A stretch of DNA of 64,000 bases from Alphaproteobacteria bacterium (GTDB lineage Bacteria; Pseudomonadota; Alphaproteobacteria; UBA2136). The position numbers and the translations under genes are program-made. The notes below the pieces were generated by a model. The model had not been told where the DNA came from. It did no database searches and saw only the letters and a list, made by a program, of their open reading frames with translations. Where the stretch lies: NCBI GenBank assembly GCA_047635695.1, contig JBLILN010000001.1, forward strand, positions 140,898 to 204,897. The letters run 5' to 3'. Positions 5,684-16,604 of this stretch are shown here, in pieces (position 1 is the first letter of the stretch; every line of letters begins with the position of its first letter).

Positions 5684-5758
5684 TGGGGTGTAGCCAAGCG
5701 GTAAGGCAACGGTTTTTGGTATCGTCATGCGTAGGTTCGAATCCTACCACCCCAGCCA
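5684..5758 (+). tRNA. tRNA-Gln (anticodon UUG)
   Basis: Hand-folded cloverleaf: TGGGGTG/TA/GCCAAGCGGTAAGGCA/ACGGT-TTTTGGT-ATCGT/CATGC/GTAGG-TTCGAAT-CCTAC/CACCCCA/G/CCA. It has the U1:A72 pair, and the D-arm is identical to the E. coli tRNA-Gln D-arm as I recall it. CCA is encoded. Confidence 0.93.
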
Positions 5759-5810
5759 TTTATTCATACAAGGTCGTCCAGTAAAGTTTACTAGACGGCC
5801 TTTTTCTTTT
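5742..5810 (+). repeat. attL: tRNA-Gln 3' end plus terminator (left copy of the island direct repeat)
   Basis: TCCTACCACCCCAGCCATTTATTCATacaaGGtcGTCCAGTaAAGTTtACTAGacGgCCTTTTTCTTTT aligns with 15792-15870. Confidence 0.75.
5771..5810 (+). terminator. Rho-independent terminator after tRNA-Gln
   Basis: Hairpin GGTCGTCCAGT..ACTAGACGGCC followed by TTTTTCTTTT. Confidence 0.7.
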
Positions 5811-5871
5811 GTATTACACTGTCTTACTGTCCATTGCGGTTTAATGCCGTTTTGTGACATCCAGATTAAAA

Positions 5872-5946
5872 GCGGGTACATAAGCGGGTTTATTCCCCAT
5901 GTACCCGCAAAATACGGAAACAAGCAAAAGGATGTACCCGCAAAAT
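5872..5946. repeat. Cluster of three copies of an ATGTACCCGC core motif (candidate arm-type recombinase or regulator sites)
   Basis: ATGTACCCGCAAAAT occurs directly at 5899-5913 and 5932-5946. An inverted GCGGGTACAT lies at 5872-5881. The last copy overlaps the ATG (5945) of the DUF2971-int operon. Confidence 0.5.
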
Positions 5947-6859
5947 GGAAAAACCAATAAGCTTTTTTAAGTACACAGGTGCACATGGTGGAAGGCTTTT
6001 ATTAGAGAACCAAACGTTAAAGTGGTCTCGCCCTTCAGAATTTAATGATCCGTTTGATTGTCATCTTGATTTGGTCATAGATGATCTGGATTATGAATTT
6101 GTTAAAAATGAGTTATTGAGAAAGGCAAGGTGTGTTTTTGATTCAACCGTACCTCTTGATGATAATAATTTTTTTAACCTTACGATAACTAGTTTGAAAT
6201 CAAAAGGAACAGATTTTAATTCTATTCAAAAAATGCTTGAGCCTTTATTTGCTGAGATGTTTGAAAGTTTACCAAATATAGTTCAAAAATATGAATCTGT
6301 ATTTCAAACATTCATGTCTGCGTATAAATTGCTGTGCCTTTCGTCTGTGGTTGATGACAACTTGATGTGGTCACATTATGCGGATAGTCACAAAGGGTGT
6401 GCTTTTGAATTTCGTAGTTCTGATCAGAATAGTCCTTATAACGAAGCTAAAGCAGTTAGCTATCCTGAGTTAGCACCTGTTTATTTTGATGCCAATAAGG
6501 TCGTAAATCTTATGTGTGGTGATTTTTCTGAAGATTATCTTGATATGATACACAAATGCATCTATACAAAATCCCGAGATTGGGACTATGAAAAAGAATG
6601 GAGAGTCTCTTTGGGAGATGGGAGAACACCATCTGAGCCCTTTGAGTTTTTACCTTTCGGCGAAAGGGAACTACATGGGGTTTATTTGGGATGTAAAATG
6701 CCGGATGCTGATTATAAAGACCAAAAGGGTGAAAAATTGTTTGGTAAAACTTCACTTGTGAAGTTAATTCGTGAAAAGTACCCTCAAGCTAAAATATATC
6801 AAGCAAAGAAAATATACGGTAAGCGTGTTGTTGAATTCGAAGAATTAAAGGTAAAGTAA
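5945..6859 (+). CDS. DUF2971 family protein
   Basis: Motifs I recall for DUF2971: SRPSEFNDPFDC near the N-terminus, LMWSHYADSHKGCAFEF centrally, and WDYEKEWRV. The stop TAA directly abuts the integrase ATG. Confidence 0.6.
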   Translation: MEKPISFFKYTGAHGGRLLLENQTLKWSRPSEFNDPFDCHLDLVIDDLDYEFVKNELLRKARCVFDSTVPLDDNNFFNLTITSLKSKGTDFNSIQKMLEPLFAEMFESLPNIVQKYESVFQTFMSAYKLLCLSSVVDDNLMWSHYADSHKGCAFEFRSSDQNSPYNEAKAVSYPELAPVYFDANKVVNLMCGDFSEDYLDMIHKCIYTKSRDWDYEKEWRVSLGDGRTPSEPFEFLPFGERELHGVYLGCKMPDADYKDQKGEKLFGKTSLVKLIREKYPQAKIYQAKKIYGKRVVEFEELKVK

Positions 6860-8050
6860 ATGCCATTAACAGATATAAAGTGTAAAAACGCTAAAGTTCA
6901 ATCAAAGGGCTATAGATTACCTGATGGTGGAGGCTTGTTTCTATGGATAACGCCTACAGGTGGTAAAATATGGCGTATGCGCTATTACTTCCCTAAGGGT
7001 GGTAAAGAAAAGATGCTGGTTATAGGTGAGTACCCAATCGTTTCTTTATCTGAAGCACGTGAAAAACAAATGGAAGCTAAAAAGCTTCTTCTGCAAAACA
7101 TTGACCCTATGGCGACCAAAAAAGAAGAACTACAAGATATAAAGAATGAGCTAAATAATACATTCAAGGATGTAGCACTTCTATGGTTTGAACATAAGAA
7201 GGATAGTTGGACAGAGCGCAATGCTGGTTATGTTATACGTCGCCTTGAGCAAAAGTTGTTTCCTTATATCGGAAAAACCCCTATTACACAGTTAAAGCGT
7301 AAACAGATTCTAGAAGCAATACGCCACACAGAAGAAGCTGGTTCAAACGACCTTGCACACCGTTTGGCTCAATATTGCAAACAAATCTGTACATATGCCC
7401 AACGTGAAGAGATTATTGTTAATAATCCAACCTTAGACCTACACGTGAACCTTAAATCATACAAACAAGAGCATCATGCAGGTTTGGAGGCACATGAGAT
7501 ACCAGCCTTCCTAAAAACACTAGAGCGTAATGATGCGAGGCTATATGCAACTACTCGCTATGCTATCAAACTCTTGATGCTGACTTTTGTCCGTACAAAT
7601 GAGCTTATCAATGCGAAATGGGAAGAAATTGACTTTGAAAATGCACAATGGACGATTCCAGCAGAACGCATGAAAATGAGTAAAGCTCATATAGTGCCGC
7701 TATCTAAACAAGTATTAGAGCTGTTCAAACTACTCCATGAATTGCACGGCAATAGAGATTTCGTATTCCCTAATCAAGTTAATCCACAAAAGACGATGAG
7801 TAATAGCACTATTCTACGTGGTTTATATCAGCTTGGTTATAAAGGTAAACTTACAGGTCATGGATTCAGAGGTACTGCAATGAGTGCCATTATGGAAAAA
7901 TTAGGATATCGCTACGAAGTGGTCGATCTTCAGCTAGCTCATGCACCAAAGGACAAAATGCAAGCAGCTTATGCCAGAGCTACGTTTTTACCAGAACGTA
8001 CCAAGATGATGCAAGAATGGGCCGATTATATTGATGGATTGAAAGGATAA
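6860..8050 (+). CDS. int: Tyrosine recombinase/integrase, P4-like (DUF4102 N-terminal domain)
   Basis: The N-terminus MPLTDIKCKNAKVQSKGYRLPDGGGLFLWITPTGGKIWRMRYYF is typical of P4-type integrases. C-terminal catalytic elements are TFVRTNEL (R), HGFRGTA (HxxR) and AAYARA (Y). It lies next to a tRNA. Confidence 0.9.
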   Translation: MPLTDIKCKNAKVQSKGYRLPDGGGLFLWITPTGGKIWRMRYYFPKGGKEKMLVIGEYPIVSLSEAREKQMEAKKLLLQNIDPMATKKEELQDIKNELNNTFKDVALLWFEHKKDSWTERNAGYVIRRLEQKLFPYIGKTPITQLKRKQILEAIRHTEEAGSNDLAHRLAQYCKQICTYAQREEIIVNNPTLDLHVNLKSYKQEHHAGLEAHEIPAFLKTLERNDARLYATTRYAIKLLMLTFVRTNELINAKWEEIDFENAQWTIPAERMKMSKAHIVPLSKQVLELFKLLHELHGNRDFVFPNQVNPQKTMSNSTILRGLYQLGYKGKLTGHGFRGTAMSAIMEKLGYRYEVVDLQLAHAPKDKMQAAYARATFLPERTKMMQEWADYIDGLKG

Positions 8051-8054
8051 ATAA

Positions 8055-8768
8055 ATGGTAACATCAAAACCTAAATGGGGCGCTAAATATAAACCTCTTC
8101 ATGCTTTTAAGCCGACTGATAAAGAGTTTGAAAGTATAATTCAAGAAATAGAAAGGCACGCAAAGAAAAAATTAAAAGATACAAGTAAAGAAGAGCTTCT
8201 AAGGCTTGTTACTCTTACAAGGTCAAAAATAAGCTGTATTGATAGAATGCCTAACCGTAACGAATTAATTGCTGAATTTAAGCAAATAAAGAAATCGGTG
8301 GAAAATGTTTATAACATGATAGACCTTGATAATATTAGTGATCCTTTGAGAAGCTTAATGTCTCAATACCAAATAATAACTGGTTTAGTTGATGAGAAAG
8401 ATTCTTTATGGTGTATTCACCATGCTTCTAAAAATTTCATTAATACTCTATCTCCTCAAGTTGAAAACCACTTAGAGGTTAGCAGTAATATAGGTTATGA
8501 ATTAATTAAGGCACGTCTAGATGTTTCGATACAATTCGCTAAAATCCTAGTTGAAAATGATATCCCTGTAAAAAGTACTGTCGAAAGCGATTTTTCCACT
8601 ACATTGGAATCCTTTCTTATAATGCTTTCTTTTCAAATTGACAATAATAGCTTCAATATTCCAACCCCAGAAGACATGCATAAGTTGGTACTCGAAGTTG
8701 TTAAGAATCACCCTGAAGAATCAAAACTCTCAATTCTAGATTTAGGTGCAAAGTTTCCCGGGCTTTAG
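8055..8768 (+). CDS. Hypothetical protein (237 aa), island-encoded
   Basis: The ORF starts 4 nt after the int stop and has AT-rich codon usage like the rest of the island. No motif recognised. Confidence 0.5.
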   Translation: MVTSKPKWGAKYKPLHAFKPTDKEFESIIQEIERHAKKKLKDTSKEELLRLVTLTRSKISCIDRMPNRNELIAEFKQIKKSVENVYNMIDLDNISDPLRSLMSQYQIITGLVDEKDSLWCIHHASKNFINTLSPQVENHLEVSSNIGYELIKARLDVSIQFAKILVENDIPVKSTVESDFSTTLESFLIMLSFQIDNNSFNIPTPEDMHKLVLEVVKNHPEESKLSILDLGAKFPGL

Positions 8769-8812
8769 GGCTGACCTTGCACTTACTTCTACAAATTAAC
8801 CGTCCATAATAG

Positions 8813-8841
8813 CCTCATTAAAGATTAACCAATTAATGAGG
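8813..8841 (+). promoter_or_regulatory. Perfect 9-bp inverted repeat overlapping the alpA ribosome-binding site
   Basis: CCTCATTAA (8813-8821), 11 nt spacer, TTAATGAGG (8833-8841). The right arm contains the GAGG that precedes ATG 8851. Confidence 0.35.
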
Positions 8842-8850
8842 AATAAGAAT

Positions 8851-9048
8851 ATGGCTGAAATCCAATTACAAAAATACGGATTCTTAAGACTTCCTGAAGT
8901 TTTAGAATTAATCCCAGTTAGCAAGTCCACTTGGTGGGCCGGAGTTAAATCTGGGAAATATCCCAAGGCAGTTAAACTAAGCTCAAGAATTACGGCTTGG
9001 AGAACAACTGAAATATCTAACTATATAGCAGATTTAGAAGCTTTATAA
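8851..9048 (+). CDS. alpA: AlpA-family DNA-binding protein (excisionase / island regulator)
   Basis: LRLPEVLELIPVSKSTWWAGVKSGKYPKAVKLSSRITAWRTTEI matches the AlpA/MerR-like HTH pattern: (L/I)P.S.ST.W..V..G.FP.P.K.....AW. Start chosen at ATG 8851 (GAGGA 8 nt upstream) rather than 8836. Confidence 0.8.
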   Translation: MAEIQLQKYGFLRLPEVLELIPVSKSTWWAGVKSGKYPKAVKLSSRITAWRTTEISNYIADLEAL

Positions 9049-9184
9049 GTGTTTTCCTCTTGAAGAGTTGAAAGCGCTTTAAGAGGTTTGAAGGCAAGCC
9101 TGCTGGTGATGAAAATTATCAGCAGGGTTACTTAAGAAACTTTTTGCCTTTAAAACCTAATGCTTTCTCAGCGTGAAGCGCGCT

Positions 9185-9206
9185 AATTACAATTAAATTA
9201 CAATTA
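9185..9206 (+). repeat. Perfect tandem 11-mer (AATTACAATTA x2) just upstream of the DUF736 gene
   Basis: 9185-9195 and 9196-9206 are identical. They are followed by TATATAAGGAAAAAACA-ATG. Confidence 0.6.
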
Positions 9207-9221
9207 TATAAGGAAAAAACA

Positions 9222-9578
9222 ATGTCAAACATTGGAAAAATTATCGAAAAACATACAAATGGAAAAATATTTTACAGTGGAAGAGTTTCAACTCTTCAGC
9301 TTAATCTAAAATTTTGGTTTGAAGAGAATAACATAGATGTGGAAGGTTCTTCTGCACCGCATTTTCTGATCATGACGGAGACCTCTGATGGGCTTGAGTC
9401 TCAAGTAGGTGCTGTCTGGAAGAAAAAATTGGAAAAAATTGGAAAAGACCCTTTAGAATTTTTCAGTTTAACTTTTGATGACCCAAGTTTCCCCCATTCT
9501 TTGAATGTTGCAGCATTTAAAAATTCGAAAATTGGTGAATGGAATATTTCTTGGCGTCGTAGACAAGTAGAAATGTAA
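9222..9578 (+). CDS. DUF736 family protein
   Basis: MSNIGKI...GRVSTLQLNLKF...APHFLI...VGAVWKKK...FFSLTFDDPSFPHSLNVAAF...W resembles the DUF736 consensus as I recall it (IG.f.....G.i.TL.l......AP.yR......iGAaWkk......ylsvklDDPsf..P). Confidence 0.6.
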   Translation: MSNIGKIIEKHTNGKIFYSGRVSTLQLNLKFWFEENNIDVEGSSAPHFLIMTETSDGLESQVGAVWKKKLEKIGKDPLEFFSLTFDDPSFPHSLNVAAFKNSKIGEWNISWRRRQVEM

Positions 9579-9588
9579 CTAAAACTCT

Positions 9589-9616
9589 GGGGGGCATGTT
9601 TTGTATCACGCCCCCC
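9589..9616. other. G7C/GC7 hairpin between the DUF736 and rep genes (candidate origin or nick-site structure, or terminator)
   Basis: GGGGGGC (9589-9595), 14 nt loop, GCCCCCC (9610-9616). It is the only GC-rich element in this AT-rich stretch. Confidence 0.4.
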
Positions 9617-9638
9617 TACACATACAAAAGGTATCAAT

Positions 9639-10778
9639 ATGAAACTCATATATCAAAACTTCGATGGTCTAGACATTAGCTTTCAAGGGGCTTTTCCTAA
9701 AAAATGTTTAGAAGAGTTAGAAAAAGCAAAGCATCAGGCACAAAAAGACAGGCAAGATTCAATTACATCTATAGGTAATCCACAAGTGAAAGTTTCTGTT
9801 GGAGAGTCAGGCGCTAGAGGTGGTTATTTATATAGATTTGATACGGGGCTTGATGGGGAAATCTGGTTTGTATCAAAATCTCAAAAAACAACCAACTGGA
9901 ATATTAGAGTATCTGTAAAAAGTTTCTCATTAGCATTGTATGGTTATGAAGGGGTCAAAAAAAGGATATTAGATAAGTTGGTGCAATTTGGAACAATAGG
10001 TAGCGGAAGTAAAAAAGGCCAGCTAACGGAACGCATCAGTCGTGTAGATTATTGTTTTGATTTTGAACATGAAGGACATTTTAATCCTACGCCTGATTTG
10101 TTTATAGCGCATCAAAGATGTCAAAAACACTGTTATGGTGAGAATGTAGGTACATATAGTGCAGGACAAGGGGATCTAATTAATACAATTCGTGTTGGGT
10201 CAATGCCTGGAAGGCAGGCCGTTATTTATAATAAAATCAAAGAAATTCAATCTAATTCAAAACAGTTTTGGTGGGATATTTGGAATATTGAAAAAGAAAA
10301 TTTCGAAAATGAAATTTGGCGTGTGGAAATTCGTGCAGGTAAGGCAGAACTTGATAAATGGCAAATAAAAAAGTTTTCAGAATTAGAAGAGAAAATTGGT
10401 GATGTTTTTATAAATATTTTAGAAAATATTCGTTATGTAAAAAAATCAAAAGATAAAAATCGTTCTAGGTGGGAAATGGCCGAGTTTTGGAAGGTTGCAA
10501 TAAAAAACATTGAAAATTGTTTAAGTGAATATATTTCAGATGCAAATAGAACAAATATTATTCGTGATTACAGGTTTAATATTGAAAATAGATTAAAAAT
10601 ACATATTTTGGGTTCAGTTATTAGTTACACAACTGTAACAAGACGTGACATTTCAGAATTAACAGTTGTTTTAGAAGAATTTCAAAACGAAATTGAAAAT
10701 TTTTCAGAATTAGAATTTGAAATAATTCAAAAAAAATATGACAAAACTGCAGAAAAATATGAATTTATTGGTGAATAA
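9639..10778 (+). CDS. rep: Replication initiation protein, Rep_trans-like (rolling-circle type)
   Basis: Three collinear motifs are reminiscent of the Rep_trans family: ISRVDYCFDF (RxDxxxD), TIRVGSMPGRQAVIYNKIKE (G-S....-YxK with candidate catalytic Tyr) and WRVEIRAGKAEL (RxE.R). Confidence 0.55.
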   Translation: MKLIYQNFDGLDISFQGAFPKKCLEELEKAKHQAQKDRQDSITSIGNPQVKVSVGESGARGGYLYRFDTGLDGEIWFVSKSQKTTNWNIRVSVKSFSLALYGYEGVKKRILDKLVQFGTIGSGSKKGQLTERISRVDYCFDFEHEGHFNPTPDLFIAHQRCQKHCYGENVGTYSAGQGDLINTIRVGSMPGRQAVIYNKIKEIQSNSKQFWWDIWNIEKENFENEIWRVEIRAGKAELDKWQIKKFSELEEKIGDVFINILENIRYVKKSKDKNRSRWEMAEFWKVAIKNIENCLSEYISDANRTNIIRDYRFNIENRLKIHILGSVISYTTVTRRDISELTVVLEEFQNEIENFSELEFEIIQKKYDKTAEKYEFIGE

Positions 10779-10791
10779 AAGGCGTTAAAAA

Positions 10792-10830
10792 GTTAAGGCT
10801 CAGTTTTTTATATAAATACTGAGCCTTAAC
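10792..10830. terminator. Bidirectional terminator between the convergent rep and ABC ATPase genes
   Basis: Perfect 12-bp stem GTTAAGGCTCAG / CTGAGCCTTAAC with a 15-nt AT loop that begins TTTTTT. Confidence 0.6.
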
Positions 10831-10831
10831 C

Positions 10832-12547
10832 TTAATCAAACTGCTCACCAAAAAGTTTATTACTTGGGTCTGAGTCGTAAAGTTCAAGAATTATGCTATC
10901 CTCAATCTCTTGGCGCTCTTCTTTTGATAATATTGAGGGTTGTTTATTGTCCTTGTCCAAAACTTCGTTAAGTGAGGCCTCTCCAATGTTAATAAAGTAT
11001 TGAAGGCCTTGCTCGTGGATATGATCTAAAGCTACTTTAAAAATCATAGCTTTTTGTCGTGGATCCATTTCTGAGAATATACATCCATCGTGCGCAATAA
11101 AATTTAATAGATTGGGGTTTAATGAGTAAAGTAGGAAATCATAACAAAATATTTTGACCTCATTAATTCCTTGTGATCCATCATTTGGTATCTCAGCTTG
11201 AATGTCATAGAGGTATTTTGCATCCACAGTTTCTTTGATCTCGAAAGATCCCCCCGAGTTTTCATAAAACCTTTTAACAAGTGACCTGAATTTGTCTTCG
11301 ATAGTATCAAATTCATTTTTAGTGCTTTTCAGATAAGCTAGGCTATCATTTTTTACTCTTGCATTTTCTAGATCAAGATGACTTCTTTCTTTTTTGAAAC
11401 CCTCTATTACCGTTTTGTATTTGTTTAGCTCTTGTACTTCAGAATTGATATTTTTTATTCTCTCATGAATAGAAGTATATTCTTCCAAAGCTCCTTTTGA
11501 GTTTAGGTCTTTAAGTATATTGTCTCGACAGAGCTCGCTTTGATGAAGCTTTGATTCGAGTGCTTCTAGTTCTTTTCTTAAAGATACTGTTTCGGTATTT
11601 AGGCGGTTAATCCTGCTAACCATTAATTTTTTATGGAAATTATTAGCATCTTCTAGTCTTACCTTTACACCATCTCCAAAGAAGAATTTTGCCTCATCGT
11701 ATAATCTGTAAATTTCTGGTAGATCCACACCAATTGATTTTGAATATTCTAGACTTTGAGATTTACGTAAAATGCTGTTGTTTAATTCGTGAGAATCATT
11801 GCGCATTTTATTTATATCTGCTGTTAGGAGATCAGCTTCTTGTAAAAATTTATCATAATTTTCTGCAATTATGAATTCATTTTTCTCTGTAATTAAAGTA
11901 CTAAGCTGATCTTCTAGGTCTTTTATGTTACTTTTCTCTAATAAGGGTTCATATTCCTTTACTGCTTTCTCAGCGTGTGTGAGCTGATTTAGTTTATTCT
12001 TAATTAGGAATTTCTCTTCTACAAGGTCAGTCTCTACATTGAGTAACGATAGATTGGTATATCTTTGATAATAATCAGATTCTGGCATATCTTGTTGCGT
12101 GAGAATGTTGGAATAATAACTCCCACCATATCGGCGTGCAAATGTATTAAGGATATGTTTAAAAGTAACGTTTGAATTAAGCTTATCGCCAATGATTATA
12201 TCTCTTATTTCTTTTGGAAAGCTGCTTTGATTGACTTTTTTTCCATTAATGTAATAATCAGTTTTAGAAAAATCCTTTTGTATAGTATAGGGCTCTCCAT
12301 CTTGTGTGAATTGTAGATAAAAATTTCCGTATTTGGACAGGAAGTCGTAAACTTTTTTCTGCTTCTTCTTGTCAAGTCTACTACCCAGCATTAAATGAAC
12401 TAAGTTTAGCGTAAAGCTTTTGCCTACACCATTATATGTCTTTTTGTTTGAATCTGTTCGTTGTAGTCCAGCAATTATATTTAGGCCATCTTTAAAAGTA
12501 ATGGTTCTAAAATTTTTATTGTCAGATCTTAATTCTAATAGCTTCAT
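10832..12547 (-). CDS. Coiled-coil ABC/SMC-like ATPase with a DUF2326-like C-terminus (ATPase component of an ABC-3C / Lamassu-like system)
   Basis: The N-terminus MKLLELRSDNKNFRTITFKDGLNIIAG...NGVGKSFTLNLVHLML holds the P-loop. About 250 aa are heptad-rich (KELEALESKLHQSE and similar). The C-terminus is DGSQGINEVKIFCYDFLL (signature-like), NFIAHDGCIFSEMDPRQK (Walker B/D-loop-like) and LQYFINI. Confidence 0.7.
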   Translation of the reverse strand: MKLLELRSDNKNFRTITFKDGLNIIAGLQRTDSNKKTYNGVGKSFTLNLVHLMLGSRLDKKKQKKVYDFLSKYGNFYLQFTQDGEPYTIQKDFSKTDYYINGKKVNQSSFPKEIRDIIIGDKLNSNVTFKHILNTFARRYGGSYYSNILTQQDMPESDYYQRYTNLSLLNVETDLVEEKFLIKNKLNQLTHAEKAVKEYEPLLEKSNIKDLEDQLSTLITEKNEFIIAENYDKFLQEADLLTADINKMRNDSHELNNSILRKSQSLEYSKSIGVDLPEIYRLYDEAKFFFGDGVKVRLEDANNFHKKLMVSRINRLNTETVSLRKELEALESKLHQSELCRDNILKDLNSKGALEEYTSIHERIKNINSEVQELNKYKTVIEGFKKERSHLDLENARVKNDSLAYLKSTKNEFDTIEDKFRSLVKRFYENSGGSFEIKETVDAKYLYDIQAEIPNDGSQGINEVKIFCYDFLLYSLNPNLLNFIAHDGCIFSEMDPRQKAMIFKVALDHIHEQGLQYFINIGEASLNEVLDKDNKQPSILSKEERQEIEDSIILELYDSDPSNKLFGEQFD

Positions 12548-12752
12548 CAGTTCCCTCTAGCTTTCCAATAATAAATAAATAGTTTAAGCACAATAAAATG
12601 GTTTCAATACTTATGGGTTTTGGGTGGTTTTTATTAAGTTGATCGTGTAGTTTATCAACTGAAATATCTTGTGTTCCCATGATTTTAAGAACGTTGGAAG
12701 AGATATAAAACAATGAATCAATAGGCCTTACACTTTTATTGGGTAAAATCAT
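12522..12752 (-). CDS. Small middle-component protein (76 aa) of the three-gene system
   Basis: Its ATG overlaps the upstream stop (ATGA at 12749-12752). Its last 26 nt overlap the ATPase start, which is preceded by GAGGGA. The size and position match ABC-3C MC / LmuC / DdmB-type adaptors. No catalytic motif is present. Confidence 0.6.
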   Translation of the reverse strand: MILPNKSVRPIDSLFYISSNVLKIMGTQDISVDKLHDQLNKNHPKPISIETILLCLNYLFIIGKLEGTDEAIRIKI

Positions 12753-13795
12753 TTTAGATGTACCCCTATATCACAGGCTTCAAAAAAGTATGCTACAATT
12801 ATCCACGATATATTCATATTGTTAAAATCTTTTATTGTAATCAACTCTGAAATTGAACTTTTAAGAGTAAAGATTATTCTGCTGAAATTTAACTCATACT
12901 GTATTGCAAGGTTATGTATTTCAGATATATCTTTTTCTTTAAGTTCTTTTTTGTTTTCCTTAGATTTTAATTCTTCGATTAGGATATTTCGATATAGATC
13001 GTTAATTACTAATTCACGTAAATTTATTCTGATATTTTCATCTTGTATGGAGTCAAGAATAGAGGTGTAGTCTAGGTAAGTATTTATATCATGTGCAACT
13101 CGAGGCACTATTTTGTTAAGTTTAAGCTTTTCTTCTACGAATATTGATCCAAGGTCACTGTCATATTGAAATAATAATTTATTATGGTCTGTTAGTAGTT
13201 TTTTACAGATCAAATTAAGTACAATCTCATCTGTATATTTTTCTGTGTGTGGGGCAAAGTATTTTTTTGAAAGCTCTATTAATTTGTTTGTTTCAAGCTT
13301 CTCTATTTTTCGAATTAAATCACTGGAGTCTCTAAGTGCTTTTTTTAAATCTACTTCGGGGTGTATATCATTTATTTCATCAATAACCTTTTGGCTAGGA
13401 GAGGCTTTGTCAAATAAGAAAAAAATGTAAATTTTGTAGTCTTTATATTTAGATCTGTTAAATATTTTTAAGGTGTTCAAGATTTTATCTTTAGTTCTTG
13501 TTGTTGTTATTTGTATGAATTCCTTCTTGTCATGGTCTACTAAATCAATATACGGCTCGTTTGCATTTTCATCGTTAGCGTTTTTGAAATTTCTATTAAA
13601 AATGAAATTAAAAACGTCTCTGAAATAGTTTTCAGCATGTATGTTGAGGGATAAATCATTGATTGCTTGATGATGCTCTATATCAAGTTTTGTAATGGCT
13701 AGTACACGACTTATGGTGTTGATAGCTGTTGCTCTGTCATCAATCATATTAGCCGCCCAATCCTGTGATTTTGAAGGAATATTGTTTAAATTCAA
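12749..13795 (-). CDS. Putative effector/sensor: SMEK-like N-terminal domain plus alpha-helical C-terminal coupling domain
   Basis: The N-terminal region HAENYFRDVFNFIFNRNFKN...EPYIDLVDHDKKEFIQITTTRTKDKI resembles what NCBI labels SMEK domain proteins (from memory). The C-terminal 150 aa are helical and end in ...IVAYFFEACDIGV. The start is uncertain: TTG 13795 or ATG 13747. Confidence 0.5.
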   Translation of the reverse strand: MNLNNIPSKSQDWAANMIDDRATAINTISRVLAITKLDIEHHQAINDLSLNIHAENYFRDVFNFIFNRNFKNANDENANEPYIDLVDHDKKEFIQITTTRTKDKILNTLKIFNRSKYKDYKIYIFFLFDKASPSQKVIDEINDIHPEVDLKKALRDSSDLIRKIEKLETNKLIELSKKYFAPHTEKYTDEIVLNLICKKLLTDHNKLLFQYDSDLGSIFVEEKLKLNKIVPRVAHDINTYLDYTSILDSIQDENIRINLRELVINDLYRNILIEELKSKENKKELKEKDISEIHNLAIQYELNFSRIIFTLKSSISELITIKDFNNMNISWIIVAYFFEACDIGVHLK

Positions 13796-13988
13796 TGCTA
13801 TTTATATAGTTTAGTGTTGATTAACGCAACATAAAGTTGTAGAAATATGGCGAACTACATTCGTTAATAGAGTTACTTGGGAGCAATGAGATAAAGCAGA
13901 TGTGTTTAACATCGATGGTAAATTGATGCAAATAGTGCAGTAATAGCTATATATGATAGAGATAATAATTGTAGGAGTGTTGTGATAA

Positions 13989-15656
13989 ATGGAACTTGAA
14001 AAAGTAAAGATTGAAAAATTTAAGAGTATTCTTAAGTTAGAGTTGGAATTATCGTCAATAAATTACCTTGTTGGTGGCAATAATGCAGGTAAGAGTAGCA
14101 CTCTACAGGCTATACATACGGCAGTTACAGCTGCACAAACCTCTACGGAGTTGAAATCAAAAATATTAGGGGATAAATTTATTAAATATTGCCCTACGGG
14201 GAATTTTGCGGACATTGGCTATAATGGTCCATTAGGAAATATGGCATCAGGAAAAAGGTCTATTGTTTCTTTTTATGGGAAGAATGATAATGAGGATGAT
14301 GTAAGTTATGCTATAGAGCTATATAAAGGTAGAAACTCTGGCGCAGGTGTTGAAAAATCTGCCGTTGCGGTTGGTTTTAGTAACCATATTGTTAAGTCTA
14401 ACCATCATTTTAGTATCTATGTACCAGGTTTGGCGGGAATACCTCATTATGAAGAGTATAGAAGTCCCGCAAATGTTATTCGTAAAATTGCCGGTGGTGA
14501 AGCTAATTCAGTTTTAAGAAACGTATTACTTCTTATAAAGAAAAAAGGTCAATTAGACACATTAAAATCTTATATGAAAAATGTATTTCCTGATTTTAAT
14601 ATAACAGTTTTGTTTGATGAAAAAAAAGATCAATATATAGAAGTTAAAGGTTCAGTTAAAAAAGGCGGAAAACTCATGCCAATTGACCTTGTTGGTACTG
14701 GAGTTTTACAGGCCTTGCAACTTTTTTCATATGTTATTTGTTTTGAACCAGTTCTATTACTTTTAGATGAGCCAGATTCACACCTACACCCGTCGAATCA
14801 AGAGCTGTTAATTAAAACATTTGAATTTATCTCAGAGGTTACAAAAACTAAAATTATTTTAGCTACGCATAGCCGGCATATGATTAATAACTTGCCAGAC
14901 GGTGCAAAACTATTTTGGTTGGAGAAAGGTAAGTTAAAACTTGACGAAGACTTTGATAGGATAAAATTACTGAATGATTTGGGTGCGCTTGACCACTCTG
15001 ATGAGTTAACTAAAGATTTGGTAATACTAACAGAGGATAAGGATAAGAAGCTTTTAGCTAAGTTATTAAATCAAATTGACACCCCAGTAGATCGAATTGG
15101 TATAGTAAGTTATAATGGGATATCAAATTATAGAATAGCTTTGCATCTGGCAAGAGAGCTTTTAAATGATAATCAAAAAGTAATCGTACATCGAGACCGT
15201 GATTTTTTAACAGAAACGGAGGTTCAGTCTTGGGAAGAAATTGTAAAAAACAACCAAGCTATTCCGTATACAACAGAAGGTAGTGATCTTGAGATGTGTT
15301 TTTTGAATATAGAGCATTTGGCAGATATTTCGGGGAGAAGTGTATCTGATGTTCAAGGGTATGTTGAATCTATAATTGAAGGGAATTCGATAGAGTGGCG
15401 TAAGAAGTTTTCTATGAAGCGCCAGGACTGTATAAGGAGAGAATATCCAAATGGTGGAAGTCCTGCAACGTCTGATTTGTGCCCTGACGATGCCCCTTTA
15501 GGTTTTGAGCATGTTGTTGGGAAGCTTTTGTTGAAAAAAATCCGAAGCGGCTCTTTGTCTGATTTTAATGTTCAGATCGAACCTACTGATAACAGTGAGT
15601 GCCGAAGCCTGGCTCCTACATTGAAGGGTATCGTTGATCAAGTATTTTCACAATGA
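13989..15656 (+). CDS. ABC-type (AAA_15/AAA_21-like) ATPase with a C-terminal Toprim/DUF4435-like region; OLD-family or fused PARIS-like candidate
   Basis: Walker A GGNNAGKSS, GTGVLQAL signature-like motif, Walker B LLLLDEPDSHLHP and H-loop LATHS. The C-terminal LVILTEDKDKKLL ... VIVHRDRDFL fits an E...DxD Toprim-like pattern. AGGAG lies 11 nt upstream of the ATG. Confidence 0.6.
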   Translation: MELEKVKIEKFKSILKLELELSSINYLVGGNNAGKSSTLQAIHTAVTAAQTSTELKSKILGDKFIKYCPTGNFADIGYNGPLGNMASGKRSIVSFYGKNDNEDDVSYAIELYKGRNSGAGVEKSAVAVGFSNHIVKSNHHFSIYVPGLAGIPHYEEYRSPANVIRKIAGGEANSVLRNVLLLIKKKGQLDTLKSYMKNVFPDFNITVLFDEKKDQYIEVKGSVKKGGKLMPIDLVGTGVLQALQLFSYVICFEPVLLLLDEPDSHLHPSNQELLIKTFEFISEVTKTKIILATHSRHMINNLPDGAKLFWLEKGKLKLDEDFDRIKLLNDLGALDHSDELTKDLVILTEDKDKKLLAKLLNQIDTPVDRIGIVSYNGISNYRIALHLARELLNDNQKVIVHRDRDFLTETEVQSWEEIVKNNQAIPYTTEGSDLEMCFLNIEHLADISGRSVSDVQGYVESIIEGNSIEWRKKFSMKRQDCIRREYPNGGSPATSDLCPDDAPLGFEHVVGKLLLKKIRSGSLSDFNVQIEPTDNSECRSLAPTLKGIVDQVFSQ

Positions 15657-15720
15657 TTCTGTAAATGCTGTTCCTGAAATTCAATAAAGTCCAGCCACAT
15701 CCAGCACTTTAGCGGTTACC

Positions 15721-15733
15721 TTTGCGGGTACAT
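15721..15733 (-). repeat. Fourth copy of the ATGTACCCGCAAA motif, inverted, about 60 bp inside attR
   Basis: TTTGCGGGTACAT on the plus strand is the reverse complement of ATGTACCCGCAAA. Confidence 0.5.
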
Positions 15734-15791
15734 TGATTTTATAAAAACTATAAACACATTTGATAACAAGTAGTTATGCGCTTGATCGTGC

Positions 15792-15870
15792 TCCTACCAC
15801 CTTTTCCAGCCATTTATTCATTTAAAGGAGTCCAGTGAAGTTCACTAGGCTCCTTTTTTCTTTTTTTTTC
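15792..15870 (+). repeat. attR: degenerate copy of the tRNA-Gln 3' end plus terminator
   Basis: TCCTACCACCttttCCAGCCATTTATTCATttaaaGGaGTCCAGTgAAGTTcACTAGgCTCCTTTTTTCTTTTTTTTT. The acceptor 3' strand is broken by a TTTT insertion, so this is not a functional tRNA end. Confidence 0.75.
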
Positions 15871-15997
15871 AACGTTTTCGTGTTTAATTATGTCCAAGTA
15901 GGTTTTGTACCATCCTAAACAAGTGGGGGTACTTTCGGGGGCATGTACCCCCAAACTTAAAAATATATTTGAATTATAAAATTAGGATACCCCCCAA

Positions 15998-16363
15998 ATG
16001 GGAAATAAAATCAGTGATGAACAGCGTTCTTATGATAATGAACGTGATCATGTCCAATTTAAGCGTGAAGTTGTAGTAGAGATTATGAAGGAACGTTTTG
16101 ATGTTACAAAGCGTTGTATGTCTGCACTATTTATGGCAAATGCTGGTGCAATAATTGCTGTTCCTGCCTTTTTGGCCCTGAGTGATAATTTTTTAGAGGA
16201 TTGGGTGTTTGACGTTATAGGTATATATACTTTCGGTATAGTAACCTGCTTGTTATCATACTTTTCTTTTACTTATAGTTTAGAGAATTTAGAAAATAAA
16301 TTTAATTATGACGAAAGGTCTCCAAAATCTATAGCTTCAGAGTCGATATATGATTCTGGTTAA
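15998..16363 (+). CDS. Hypothetical small membrane protein (121 aa), possibly disrupted
   Basis: It has two hydrophobic helices (ALFMANAGAIIAVPAFLAL and IGIYTFGIVTCLLSYFSF). After the TAA at 16361-16363 the same frame stays open to 16513 and encodes another helix (LVTVFLLVFSASAFITASF). Confidence 0.4.
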   Translation: MGNKISDEQRSYDNERDHVQFKREVVVEIMKERFDVTKRCMSALFMANAGAIIAVPAFLALSDNFLEDWVFDVIGIYTFGIVTCLLSYFSFTYSLENLENKFNYDERSPKSIASESIYDSG

Positions 16364-16487
16364 CTAGTTACAGTTTTTTTGCTGGTTTTTTCGGCAAGTG
16401 CTTTCATAACGGCTAGTTTTCAGATGGCTAGTAGCCTTGAGGAAAATACAGTAATTGCTAAACATGAAGTATCTGTGGAGATAAATG

Positions 16488-16604
16488 ATGCCTCTAACAG
16501 ATATAAAATGTAAACAAGCCAAGCCTATTGATAAGGCTTATAAGCTAACCGATGGCGGTGGTTTATTCCGCCCTTTTTTTCGATGGTTGCGTGAATCACG
16601 ATAG
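16488..16604 (+). pseudogene. Truncated P4-type integrase fragment
   Basis: MPLTDIKCKQAKPIDKAYKLTDGGGLF aligns with residues 1-27 of the intact integrase (MPLTDIKCKNAKVQSKGYRLPDGGGLF). It then diverges (RPFFRWLRESR) and stops, leaving no catalytic domain. Confidence 0.75.

What the first reader, a model, noticed from the sequence alone, without database searches (positions are those of the whole stretch)
10832..13795. Three-gene overlapping operon with ABC-3C / Lamassu-like architecture and an effector of unknown chemistry
Seen in sequence:
- Three minus-strand ORFs are translationally coupled. There is an ATGA overlap at 12749-12752, and a 26-nt overlap at 12522-12547 with GAGGGA ahead of the ATPase ATG.
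- The gene order is a 348-aa protein, a 76-aa protein and a 571-aa protein.
- The last protein has an N-terminal P-loop (NGVGKS), about 250 aa of coiled coil, and a C-terminal block (DGSQG...FIAHDGCIFSEMDPRQK...LQYFINI). I recognise that block as DUF2326-like.
- The first protein has an N-terminal region (HAENYFRDVFNFIF...YIDLVDHDKKEFIQITTT) resembling SMEK-domain proteins. I cannot find a canonical nuclease, Sir2, TIR, protease or phospholipase motif in it.

Established knowledge: effector, small adaptor and SMC/ABC ATPase in this order is the layout of Lamassu/DdmABC and of the computationally defined ABC-three-component conflict systems.

Inference: this is an anti-phage or anti-plasmid system. 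As far as I know, neither its effector biochemistry nor its trigger has been tested. Its location inside a mobile island beside another defence-like gene supports a conflict role.
Basis: partly seen in the sequence, partly recalled or inferred. Interest (0 to 1): 0.8.

Follow-up and report, generated by a model that had tools for sequence, protein, structure and literature searches.

The report
SMEK-nuclease Lamassu defence operon
This is an intact three-gene bacterial anti-phage/anti-plasmid cassette of the Lamassu (ABC-3C) family, carried on a small mobile island; its subtype is already catalogued, and its "unknown" effector is a restriction-enzyme-like DNA-cutting domain, so it is a correct but fairly ordinary find.

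Summary
Three overlapping minus-strand genes lie at 10832-13795, with a 4-nt ATGA overlap and a 26-nt overlap, and end in a strong terminator hairpin. The first gene most likely starts at ATG 13747 (332 aa), not at TTG 13795.

Profile searches place the genes as follows:
- Effector: SMEK_N (5e-30) plus a distant CTD10-like tail.
- Middle gene: ABC-3C Middle Component 6 (1e-12).
- ATPase: DUF2326 (4e-25). Its AlphaFold model matches B. subtilis YydD, SMC heads, Lamassu LmuB and Rad50.

The same trio, in the same order and with the same overlaps, recurs in 27 genomes from several phyla. The 332/76/571-aa architecture matches the "Lamassu_SMEK" subtype in DefenseFinder, and NCBI already names such genes "ABC-three component system" proteins.

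The claim of unknown effector chemistry is overstated. SMEK_N is homologous (E 1e-9) to the solved nuclease domain of the Kordia Argonaute partner, and it is a recurrent N-terminal effector module.

The cassette sits on a ~10-kb island integrated at tRNA-Gln, next to an OLD/AriA-like ATPase.

It most likely works like Lamassu. An SMC-like dimer plus a small adaptor sequesters the nuclease, and foreign DNA structures release it. I found no report of an experimental test of this subtype.

Verdict: new member of a known kind; modest interest.

The parts
12749..13747 (-). lmuA-like effector gene (332 aa from ATG 13747; the open frame extends to TTG 13795, 348 aa). N-terminal SMEK nuclease-like domain plus a helical C-terminal docking domain.
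   Evidence: ORF. 44 of 47 homologues start at Met17. The AlphaFold model has mean pLDDT 84.
13304..13714 (-). SMEK_N domain (residues 28-164 in 348-aa numbering). Conserved candidate active-site residues are E55, D84, D87, Q95, T97, K102 and K104.
   Evidence: Pfam PF21941 5e-30; NCBIfam NF033859 5e-21; PADLOC Aga_REase-PNTD1-PNTD2 2.3e-22. PDB 26bh_D 'Mrr domain' of Kordia Mrr-APAZ, E 1.1e-9. Invariant and near-invariant columns.
12752..13237 (-). Effector C-terminal helical domain (residues ~187-348), presumed to dock onto the ATPase/adaptor. It is distantly CTD10-like.
   Evidence: Pfam CTD10 E 0.027, below the cutoff. 2 of 47 relatives reach E<0.01, best 1.6e-5. 28 of 47 relatives weakly hit PADLOC PDC-M68A. 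Whole-chain Foldseek top hits are YydB and LmuA, none significant.
12522..12752 (-). lmuC-like adaptor gene (76 aa), ABC-3C Middle Component 6. It overlaps the effector stop by 4 nt (ATGA) and the ATPase start by 26 nt.
   Evidence: Pfam PF20293 MC6 1e-12, 48.3 bits against a cutoff of 27.2. Found in the same slot in 27 loci. Same length as LmuC_Clade_VI in Lamassu_SMEK systems.
10832..12547 (-). lmuB-like SMC-family ABC ATPase gene (571 aa, DUF2326/YydD family): split ATPase head with an intervening coiled coil of ~250 aa and no CxxC zinc hook.
   Evidence: Pfam DUF2326 3.6e-25. PADLOC PDC-M68B 1.2e-66. AlphaFold pLDDT 85. Foldseek: YydD 1e-22, Smc head 3e-12, LmuB 5e-12 and 8e-11, Rad50 1e-9. 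16 of 34 family members hit PADLOC LmuB models.
12416..12433 (-). Walker A core NGVGKS (N39-S44). It follows a ~10-residue family-wide insertion (residues 28-38) and has Thr in place of the first P-loop Gly.
   Evidence: Sequence and alignment. pLDDT is below 50 for residues 32-42.
11084..11101 (-). Walker B FIAHDG (residues 483-488). Asp487 is followed by an invariant Gly, so there is no catalytic Glu.
   Evidence: Invariant H486, D487 and G488.
10786..10833 (-). Intrinsic terminator: a 16-bp stem followed by a U-run, starting within the ATPase stop codon. It is shared with the convergent Rep-like gene.
   Evidence: RNA fold -23.3 kcal/mol, z -6.5, and 0 of 200 shuffles fold as well.
13796..13988 (.). 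Divergent intergenic region between the operon and the OLD-like ATPase gene. It presumably holds the promoter(s), but none matches the sigma-70 consensus.
5752..15821 (.). ~10-kb integrative island that carries the operon. It lies at the 3' end of tRNA-Gln (5684-5758), with direct repeats CCAGCCATTTATTCAT at 5752 and 15806. Contents: DUF2971 gene, tyrosine integrase, AlpA, DUF736, a weakly Rep_trans-like gene, the Lamassu operon and an OLD-like ATPase. GC is 30-35%, against ~40-43% in the upstream flank (1-5 kb) and ~34-39% just downstream.

Best explanation
This is a type II 'short' Lamassu (ABC-3C) defence operon of the SMEK subtype.

Shown here:
- The 571-aa DUF2326 protein is an SMC/Rad50-fold ATPase (LmuB-like).
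- The 76-aa MC6 protein is the LmuC-like adaptor.
- The 332-aa protein is LmuA-like: an N-terminal SMEK restriction-endonuclease-like domain joined to a helical docking domain.

Inferred by analogy with the Vibrio, Bacillus and Salmonella Lamassu structures:
- An ATPase dimer with one adaptor holds one effector monomer inactive through its C-terminal domain.
- Binding of abnormal DNA from a replicating phage or plasmid (free ends, hairpins or palindromes, replication intermediates) releases the effector.
- The released effector oligomerises, and its SMEK nuclease domains then degrade DNA indiscriminately. This aborts the infection or eliminates the plasmid.
- The deviant Walker A/B motifs suggest that ATP binding, with little or no hydrolysis, acts as the regulatory switch.

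The cassette is cargo of a tRNA-Gln-integrated mobile island. Its tight translational coupling would help keep the toxic effector in step with its sequestering partners.
For: - Domain hits above curated cutoffs: SMEK_N, MC6 and DUF2326.
- The ATPase model matches YydD (1e-22), an Smc head, LmuB chains 9ux7_A and 9hqu_A, cohesin and Rad50.
- 16 of 34 close family members hit PADLOC LmuB HMMs, best 8e-10.
- The trio is conserved in order and in gene overlaps in 27 loci across Gammaproteobacteria, Campylobacterota, Bacteroidota and others.
- DefenseFinder Lamassu_SMEK rows show LmuB_Short of 560-586 aa, LmuC_Clade_VI of 76 aa and LmuA_SMEK of 323 aa. SMEK is listed as a short-Lamassu effector.
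- SMEK_N is homologous to the solved Kordia 'Mrr' nuclease domain and to an Argonaute-associated REase model. The SMEK-APAZ/pAgo complex is reported to cleave DNA (PMC10810196).
- SMEK_N is always N-terminal and is swapped among Lamassu, STAND NTPase, TPR and PIN-TPR proteins.
- Every family-invariant residue is intact in the window proteins.
- Lamassu mechanism: A1B2C1 sequestration, DNA-end sensing and LmuA tetramer activation.
- Mobile-island and defence-gene context here and beside a Gabija-like gene pair on a Vibrio plasmid.
Against: - No member of the SMEK subtype has been tested, as far as the held literature shows.
- The window's own ATPase does not reach PADLOC LmuB models at E<=0.05. 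Neither it nor its family profile hits any solved LmuB, SMC or Rad50 by sequence.
- Foldseek scores LmuB no better than generic SMC or cohesin, so the fold alone does not prove Lamassu membership.
- The nuclease site is non-canonical: D84...Q95-x-T97, with no Lys at the usual position. A SMEK_N profile shows no similarity to E. coli Mrr (hhalign probability 0.1).
- Structural matches of the effector to nucleases and to LmuA are individually non-significant.
- Walker A is interrupted, and Walker B lacks a catalytic acid.
- Many homologous loci sit among housekeeping genes rather than in defence islands.
Confidence: 0.75

Rival explanations
1. The complex is the same, but the effector is not a DNase. 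The SMEK domain here may be an RNase, a nickase or a non-catalytic binding module, so toxicity or defence would run through different chemistry than DNA degradation.
For: - The canonical (D/E/Q)xK lysine is replaced by an invariant Thr97.
- There is no profile similarity to EcoKMrr.
- Foldseek matches to PD-(D/E)xK enzymes are all non-significant.
- Related Argonaute-associated nucleases (SPARDA DREN) are described as DNase/RNase (abstract listed).
Against: - Significant homology to the Kordia domain that depositors call Mrr and that the literature describes as a nuclease supporting DNA cleavage.
- E55, D84, Q95 and K104 are invariant or nearly so, as expected for a metal-dependent phosphodiesterase site with a relocated Lys.
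- The named weak structural neighbours are overwhelmingly restriction/Vsr/Cas4/VRR-NUC-type enzymes.
Confidence: 0.1
2. The cassette mainly serves the mobile island. It could act as an addiction or stabilisation module, or as a weapon against competing plasmids and islands (DdmABC-style plasmid elimination), rather than as host anti-phage immunity.
For: - It is cargo of a small integrase/AlpA/Rep-like island.
- DdmABC, a Lamassu, eliminates plasmids.
- Homologues occur on plasmids.
- tblastn found no homologue in deposited phage genomes.
Against: - This is not mutually exclusive with anti-phage function.
- All tested Lamassu systems protect against phage.
- In other genomes the cassette moves independently of this island's genes.
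Confidence: 0.1
3. It is a decayed or non-functional copy, or a cellular SMC-like DNA-repair or chromosome-maintenance module rather than an immune system.
For: - The interrupted Walker A, the Walker B without a catalytic Glu, and the Asn in the LQYFIN strand where an H-loop His might be expected could be read as loss of ATPase function.
- Lamassu is reported to descend from SbcCD/Rad50-Mre11 (abstract).
Against: - These deviations are invariant across 34 relatives at ~50% identity, so they are selected features and not decay.
- Naturally deviant Walker B motifs are reported for functional LmuB proteins.
- All three ORFs are intact.
- The distribution is patchy and horizontally transferred, the locus sits on an island, and there is no Mre11-like partner.
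Confidence: 0.03

Closest known systems
Lamassu_SMEK subtype of short type II Lamassu (DefenseFinder models of Haudiquet et al. 2025, bioRxiv 10.1101/2025.04.02.646746)
   Same: - Same three components and near-identical sizes: LmuB_Short 560-586 aa, LmuC_Clade_VI 76 aa and LmuA_SMEK 323 aa, against 571, 76 and 332 aa here.
- SMEK effector, short coiled coil and no zinc hook.
   Different: - I could not run the DefenseFinder HMMs, so membership rests on architecture and Pfam/PADLOC homology.
- That paper describes a prototypical Gx4GK[ST] Walker A and hhhhD[Q/S/T/E] Walker B for short LmuB. This family instead has T-x4-GKS after a 10-residue insert, and hhhhDG.
- I found no experimental data for this subtype.
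ABC-three-component (ABC-3C) systems of Krishnan, Burroughs, Iyer and Aravind 2020 (cited)
   Same: - Effector, Middle Component, ABC ATPase operon.
- The middle gene passes the Pfam MC6 model, and the effector tail is CTD10-like.
- PGAP names a Vibrio homologue trio 'ABC-three component system protein / middle component 6 / DUF2326'.
   Different: - The CTD10 match of the window protein is below the Pfam threshold (15.5 against 28.1 bits).
- The original paper could not be read here.
DdmABC / VcLmuACB and Salmonella LmuACB (structurally solved type II Lamassu)
   Same: - SMC-like ATPase with a deviant Walker B, a small middle protein, and an effector with an N-terminal nuclease and a C-terminal docking domain.
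- The ATPase model aligns to LmuB chains 9ux7_A and 9hqu_A.
- LmuA chains are among the top, non-significant, matches of the effector model.
   Different: - The effector there is a Cap4 nuclease, not SMEK.
- VcLmuC contacts are reported out to residue 133 and is MC3 type. The adaptor here is only 76 aa and MC6 type.
- No sequence-level hit to those chains.
B. subtilis YydB-YydD (DUF2326 founder; integrative model PDB 9a6c)
   Same: - Best structural match of the ATPase (E 1e-22, TM 0.59).
- YydB is the top match of the effector model (non-significant).
- Same DUF2326 family name in JGI annotations.
   Different: - Only 19% identity.
- YydB is 481 aa and carries a different effector domain.
- Its function is likewise uncharacterised, as far as I could find.
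SMEK/Mrr-APAZ effector of the short Argonaute system of Kordia jejudonensis (SPARMA; PDB 26bh)
   Same: - Homologous N-terminal nuclease domain (E 1.1e-9 over residues 38-179), sharing the HAE, IDL-D and QIT-T motifs.
- In both cases the domain is an effector coupled to a nucleic-acid sensor.
   Different: The sensor there is a guide-loaded Argonaute reached through an APAZ domain. Here it is an SMC-like ATPase reached through a CTD10-like domain.
PADLOC candidate system PDC-M68
   Same: - The B component matches the ATPase strongly (1.2e-66; 34 of 34 relatives).
- The A component weakly matches 28 of 47 effector relatives.
   Different: - The window effector itself does not reach PDC-M68A.
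- PDC-M68 is an untested candidate, and no paper describing it was found.

Membership tests
ABC-3C system (Krishnan et al. 2020) | Three co-directional, tightly linked genes in the order effector, small middle component, ABC ATPase | tested here: met
   ORFs and overlaps. The same order and overlaps occur in 27 other loci.
ABC-3C system (Krishnan et al. 2020) | The middle gene belongs to one of the MC families | tested here: met
   Pfam MC6 PF20293, E 1e-12, 48.3 bits against a cutoff of 27.2.
ABC-3C system (Krishnan et al. 2020) | The effector carries one of the ABC-3C C-terminal domains (CTD1-12) | tested here: inconclusive
   CTD10 scores E 0.027 and 15.5 bits, below the cutoff of 28.1. Only 2 of 47 relatives reach E<0.01, best 1.6e-5.
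Lamassu (type II, short) | LmuB: an SMC/Rad50-fold ATPase of ~600 aa whose head is split by a coiled coil | tested here: met
   AlphaFold model with helices 174-425 between the head halves. Foldseek hits: LmuB 9ux7_A 4.7e-12, 9hqu_A 7.9e-11, Smc 3e-12, Rad50 1e-9.
Lamassu (type II, short) | The ATPase is recognised by LmuB profile HMMs | tested here: inconclusive
   The window protein has no PADLOC LmuB hit at E<=0.05. Among its 34 close relatives, 16, 11 and 8 hit LmuB models PDLC03859, PDLC03863 and PDLC03865, best 8e-10. The DefenseFinder LmuB_Short model could not be run.
Lamassu (type II, short) | LmuA: an N-terminal effector domain plus a C-terminal domain that binds LmuB/LmuC | tested here: inconclusive
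   The two-domain model supports this layout. LmuA chains 9ny1_D and 9uxi_A, and YydB, are top Foldseek hits, but with E 0.1-0.3. Binding itself is not testable here.
Lamassu (type II, short) | Subtype Lamassu_SMEK: a SMEK effector with a ~76-aa LmuC and a short LmuB | tested here: met
   SMEK_N 5e-30. Sizes of 332, 76 and 571 aa compare with 323, 76 and 560-586 aa in the DefenseFinder table.
Lamassu (type II, short) | Protects against phage or plasmids in a Walker A- and effector-dependent way | not testable with these tools
   This needs cloning and plaque or plasmid-stability assays. No published test of a SMEK member was found.
SMEK_N / Mrr-like restriction-endonuclease-fold nuclease | Passes the curated SMEK_N family models | tested here: met
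   Pfam 104.6 bits against a cutoff of 27; NCBIfam 74.3 bits against a cutoff of 30.
SMEK_N / Mrr-like restriction-endonuclease-fold nuclease | Homology to a structurally solved nuclease domain | tested here: met
   PDB 26bh_D, 'Mrr domain' of Kordia Mrr-APAZ, E 1.1e-9. PADLOC Aga_REase model 2.3e-22.
SMEK_N / Mrr-like restriction-endonuclease-fold nuclease | Canonical PD-(D/E)xK or Mrr-type D...QxK catalytic motif | tested here: inconclusive
   E55, D84 and Q95 are conserved, but position 97 is an invariant Thr, not Lys. An invariant K104 lies in the next helix. hhalign against EcoKMrr gave probability 0.1.
SMEK_N / Mrr-like restriction-endonuclease-fold nuclease | Metal-dependent nuclease activity | not testable with these tools
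   The only support is indirect, from the literature: the SMEK-APAZ/pAgo complex cleaves DNA (PMC10810196).

The most novel reading that the evidence does not exclude
The SMEK/DUF2326 branch may be a mechanistically distinct Lamassu. Four family-wide features set it apart:
- The ATPase has an interrupted P-loop (a 10-residue insert, with Thr in place of the first Gly).
- Its Walker B is 'HDG', with no catalytic acid, and an invariant Asn (N520) sits in the LQYFIN strand where an H-loop His might be expected.
- Its adaptor is a minimal 76-aa protein.
- Its nuclease has a D...QxT site with a relocated lysine.

Together these could mean a non-hydrolysing, ATP-binding-only switch, with a different stoichiometry, trigger or substrate than the solved Cap4-type systems.
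Probability: 0.15. Interest if true: 0.5.

Novelty: new member of a known kind. Interest (0 to 1): 0.25.

Why it matters
The find adds a divergent, intact example of a catalogued but experimentally untested Lamassu subtype; its nearest relatives are 56-60% identical. It also shows that subtype riding on a compact tRNA-Gln island beside a second defence-like ATPase.

Practical value:
- It offers a clean, self-terminated 3-kb cassette for testing whether the SMEK nuclease module, which is also used by short Argonautes and STAND NTPases, is activated by release and oligomerisation as Cap4-type LmuA is.
- It allows a test of whether an LmuB with such deviant nucleotide-binding motifs still needs ATP.

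It does not open a new class of system.

Tried and rejected
- **Sequence searches of the ATPase against the PDB.** Neither the single protein nor a 34-sequence profile found any SMC, Rad50 or LmuB. Only structure comparison showed the relationship.
- **hhalign of the SMEK_N profile against E. coli Mrr.** No similarity. The template was a single sequence and the query had low diversity, so the test is weak. I do not claim membership in the Mrr_cat family proper.
- **Foldseek of the whole effector model against PDB and BFVD.** Nothing was significant.
- **Reading Krishnan et al. 2020.** Attempts by DOI and by PMC id failed because the paper is not held.
- **Searching for PDC-M68 or DUF2326 in papers.** Nothing relevant.
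- **Looking for a conserved fourth gene.** None of this island's genes travels with the trio, except one DUF2971 neighbour in L008. Flanking ORFs in 27 loci are heterogeneous: some restriction-modification, Olokun or PDC genes, and many housekeeping genes. I therefore rejected the idea that the OLD-like neighbour is a system component.
- **Identifying the organism.** Exact-cluster look-ups returned no names, and the contig comes from an uncultured source.
- **tblastn of the ATPase against deposited phage genomes.** No match, although phrog_5467 matches it.
- **Consensus promoter scan.** No convincing promoter upstream of the operon.

Full report
**1. Observation**

The sequence shows the ATGA stop/start overlap at 12749-12752. 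It also shows the 26-nt overlap at 12522-12547, with GAGGGA five bases upstream of the ATPase ATG.

One correction is needed. In an alignment of 47 homologues, 44 begin at the residue equivalent to Met17, and database relatives are 328-337 aa long. The real start is therefore very probably ATG 13747, giving 332 aa.

The operon ends in a strong hairpin plus U-run at 10786-10833 (dG -23.3 kcal/mol, z -6.5) that begins inside the stop codon. The consensus scan found no sigma-70-like promoter in the 193-bp divergent intergenic region 13796-13988.

**2. What the genes are**

Profile searches gave the following:
- Effector: Pfam SMEK_N (residues 28-164, E 5e-30), NCBIfam SMEK_N (5e-21), and a sub-threshold CTD10 match in the C-terminal half (E 0.027).
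- Middle gene: ABC-3C Middle Component 6 (E 1e-12, above the cutoff).
- ATPase: DUF2326 (residues 424-570, E 3.6e-25).

PADLOC v2 gives PDC-M68B for the ATPase (1.2e-66) and "Aga_REase-PNTD1-PNTD2" for the effector N-domain (2.3e-22).

An AlphaFold model of the ATPase (pLDDT 85) has a split head separated by long helices at 174-425. Its best structural matches are:
- B. subtilis YydD (E 1e-22)
- an Smc head with coiled coil (3e-12)
- LmuB in the LmuAB-DNA complex (5e-12)
- Salmonella LmuACB (8e-11)
- cohesin, Smc5/6, condensin and Rad50

By sequence alone the ATPase is remote. Neither it nor a 34-member profile hits any solved SMC, Rad50 or LmuB, and the window protein misses PADLOC's LmuB HMMs. 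However, 16, 11 and 8 of its 34 close relatives hit three LmuB models, best 8e-10. This links the DUF2326 family to LmuB transitively.

**3. Co-occurrence**

A scan of one genome per species found 35 loci that encode an effector relative. tblastn with the three window proteins shows A-B-C in the same order wherever the contig allows.

Across 27 complete loci:
- The B/C overlap is 26 nt in 19 loci and 29 nt in 8.
- The A/B overlap is 4 nt in 13 loci, and 1-26 nt in all but one of the others.

The hosts span Gammaproteobacteria, Campylobacterota, Bacteroidota, Saccharibacteria and others, so the cassette moves horizontally as a unit. None of this island's other genes travels with it.

The flanks are heterogeneous. 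They include some type IIG restriction-modification, Olokun and candidate defence genes, and many housekeeping genes. On a Vibrio alginolyticus plasmid the trio sits next to an AAA ATPase plus UvrD-helicase pair (Gabija-like). PGAP already annotates that trio as [quoted passage not shown].

**4. The effector is not of unknown chemistry**

- phmmer against PDB sequences gives a single hit: "the Mrr domain from Kordia jejudonensis Mrr-APAZ pAgo" (26bh_D, E 1.1e-9, residues 38-179). The two share the HAE, IDL-D and QIT-T motifs.
- Lu et al. [quoted passage not shown] They cite earlier work in which the SMEK-APAZ/short-pAgo heterodimer mediated guided DNA cleavage.
- In the family alignment, D84, Q95, T97 and K104 are invariant, and H53, E55, D87 and K102 nearly so.
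- In the AlphaFold model (pLDDT 84), E55 lies in a helix. D84 precedes one strand of a hairpin, and Q95-x-T97 lies in the next strand. K102 and K104 open the following helix. This layout fits a restriction-endonuclease-type site of the Mrr-like D...QxK kind, with the lysine displaced. That reading is my inference.
- Tests of it were weak. hhalign against E. coli Mrr found nothing. Foldseek matches of the two-domain model are individually non-significant, although the named neighbours are mostly PD-(D/E)xK enzymes: EcoO109I, Vsr, PA endonuclease and Shedu in the PDB, and "PD-(D/E)XK nuclease", restriction enzymes, DUF559, Cas4 and VRR-NUC in BFVD.
- Independent support for an effector role comes from modularity. 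A search of 1.8 billion representatives with the N-domain alone found 1,303 clusters (E<=0.001), with the domain always N-terminal. Besides the ~330-aa class, it is fused to TPR arrays, STAND NTPases (nSTAND3/NPHP3_N), a PIN-TPR-GreABC protein and pentapeptide repeats. In Methylobacter it heads a 990-aa P-loop NTPase-TPR protein.

**5. Classification against the literature**

Reviews and structural papers equate ABC-3C with type II Lamassu. Haudiquet et al. 2025 list SMEK as an effector specific to "short" Lamassu. Their DefenseFinder output contains Lamassu_SMEK systems with these components:
- LmuB_Short, 560-586 aa
- LmuC_Clade_VI, 76 aa
- LmuA_SMEK, 323 aa

That is the architecture seen here (571, 76 and 332 aa). 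I could not run those HMMs, so membership rests on architecture plus Pfam and PADLOC homology. I found no paper that tests a SMEK-type Lamassu.

**6. Family-wide peculiarities**

These features are shared by all 34 aligned ATPases and are not special to this window:
- The P-loop reads AG-[10-residue insert]-NGxGKS, with Thr where the first Gly of Gx4GK[ST] should be. The model has pLDDT below 50 there.
- The Q-loop (Q151/Q152) and a GSQG signature are conserved.
- Walker B is FIAHDG, with an invariant Gly after the Asp and no catalytic Glu.
- An invariant Asn (N520) sits in the LQYFIN strand, where by my reading an H-loop His would be expected (not checked structurally).
- There is no CxxC zinc hook.

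Haudiquet et al. describe short LmuB as having a prototypical Walker A and hhhhD[Q/S/T/E]. Li et al. report naturally deviant Walker B motifs in functional LmuB proteins. These features are therefore differences of degree. They are compatible with a slow- or non-hydrolysing ATP switch.

**7. Context**

- tRNA-Gln lies at 5684-5758.
- A 16-nt exact direct repeat (CCAGCCATTTATTCAT, extending at 80% identity over 64 nt) occurs at 5752 and 15806.
- GC is 30-35% within the repeats, against ~40-43% in the upstream flank (1-5 kb) and ~34-39% just downstream.

The ~10-kb island encodes a DUF2971 protein, a tyrosine integrase, an unknown 237-aa protein, AlpA, DUF736, a weakly Rep_trans-like 379-aa protein, the Lamassu operon, and a divergently transcribed 555-aa AAA_15/AAA_21 ATPase. 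That ATPase hits NsnB, AriA, Old and GajA models.

**8. Mechanism**

Shown here: homology, fold, gene linkage and context.

Inferred from the solved Cap4-type Lamassu complexes:
- An LmuB-like dimer with one LmuC-like adaptor holds one effector monomer inactive through its C-terminal domain.
- DNA ends, hairpins or replication intermediates of an invader trigger release.
- The effector oligomerises, and the SMEK domains then cut DNA non-specifically, which aborts the infection or eliminates the plasmid.

Nested start/stop overlaps conserved across phyla argue for strict co-translation of a toxic effector with its keepers.

Confidence:
- I put 0.75 on this overall reading. I put less, perhaps 0.5, on each specific step.
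- The main rivals, at about 0.1 each, are a different effector chemistry (RNase or nickase) and a primarily island-selfish or anti-plasmid role.
- A decayed or housekeeping module is unlikely (0.03), because every family-invariant residue is intact and the deviations are conserved.

**9. Verdict**

This is a new, divergent member of an already catalogued and routinely annotated, though experimentally untested, Lamassu/ABC-3C subtype. Its effector domain has known nuclease relatives and a solved structure. Interest is 0.25.

The most novel reading that remains open is that the SMEK/DUF2326 branch works as a non-hydrolysing, mechanistically distinct Lamassu (probability about 0.15).

Noticed in passing
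window 13989-15656 (+): A 555-aa AAA_15/AAA_21 (DUF2813-start) ABC-type ATPase is transcribed divergently from the Lamassu operon, inside the same island. It hits PADLOC NsnB (5e-27), AriA (1e-24), Old (3e-18), GajA and ATPase-Toprim models, and weakly hits AriA and OLD chains in the PDB. ILTEDKD and HRDRD motifs suggest a Toprim-like C-terminal part. It is probably a stand-alone OLD-family defence gene and does not co-occur with the trio elsewhere.
   Followed up: partly
window 5684-5815 and 15806-15869: tRNA-Gln (5684-5758) is followed by an att-like direct repeat, CCAGCCATTTATTCAT, at 5752 and 15806 (80% identity over 64 nt). The repeats bound a ~10-kb low-GC island containing an integrase (6860-8050), AlpA (8836-9048), DUF736 (9222-9578) and a weakly Rep_trans-like gene (9639-10778).
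   Followed up: partly
window 15806-16522: Beyond the right repeat lies a decayed second copy of the island's left end. The 15-mer ATGTACCCGCAAAAT occurs at 5899 and 5932, with a 2-mismatch copy (87%) at 15943. A 35-nt fragment that is 83% identical to the 5' end of the integrase gene lies at 16488-16522. Between them sits a 121-aa membrane-protein ORF (15998-16363). This suggests tandem or successive insertions at the same tRNA site.
   Followed up: no
window 5945-6859 (+); L008 9008-9787: A DUF2971 gene (phrog_1762, 5e-38) ends exactly where the integrase gene starts. A DUF2971 homologue (27% identity) also lies immediately downstream of the Lamassu-SMEK operon in a Campylobacterales genome, and DUF2971 appears in 2 of 86 flanking ORFs. 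The link is possibly a loose association and its meaning is unknown.
   Followed up: partly
L031 6004-8976 (Ca. Methylobacter oryzae); also L033: The SMEK_N domain (46% identical to the window's) heads a 990-aa protein with a P-loop NTPase (AAGGIGKS) and TPR-like repeats, which resembles an Avs/STAND architecture. Other representatives fuse SMEK_N to nSTAND3, TPR, PIN-TPR-GreABC and pentapeptide repeats.
   Followed up: partly
L002-L034 (27 loci), equivalent to window 12522-12547: The adaptor/ATPase gene overlap is held at exactly 26 nt (19 loci) or 29 nt (8 loci) across phyla. The last ~8 codons of the adaptor and the conserved MKLLxL start of the ATPase are thus co-encoded in two frames.
   Followed up: partly
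window 12416-12466 (ATPase residues 28-44) and all of alignment A2: There is a family-wide ~10-residue insertion inside the P-loop (AG-LQxxxxxKKTY-NGxGKS), predicted with low confidence. Whether it still forms a nucleotide-binding loop is unknown.
   Followed up: no
L024 and L025 (Campylobacter concisus CCONP22O1, one contig): Two copies of the whole system with identical tblastn statistics lie ~317 kb apart in one genome. This suggests a duplicated mobile element.
   Followed up: no
window 10832-12547 against the phage resources: The ATPase matches PHROG family phrog_5467 (5e-70, unknown function), yet tblastn finds no homologue in 50,697 deposited phage genomes. The PHROG members presumably come from prophages that are not in that collection.
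   Followed up: no
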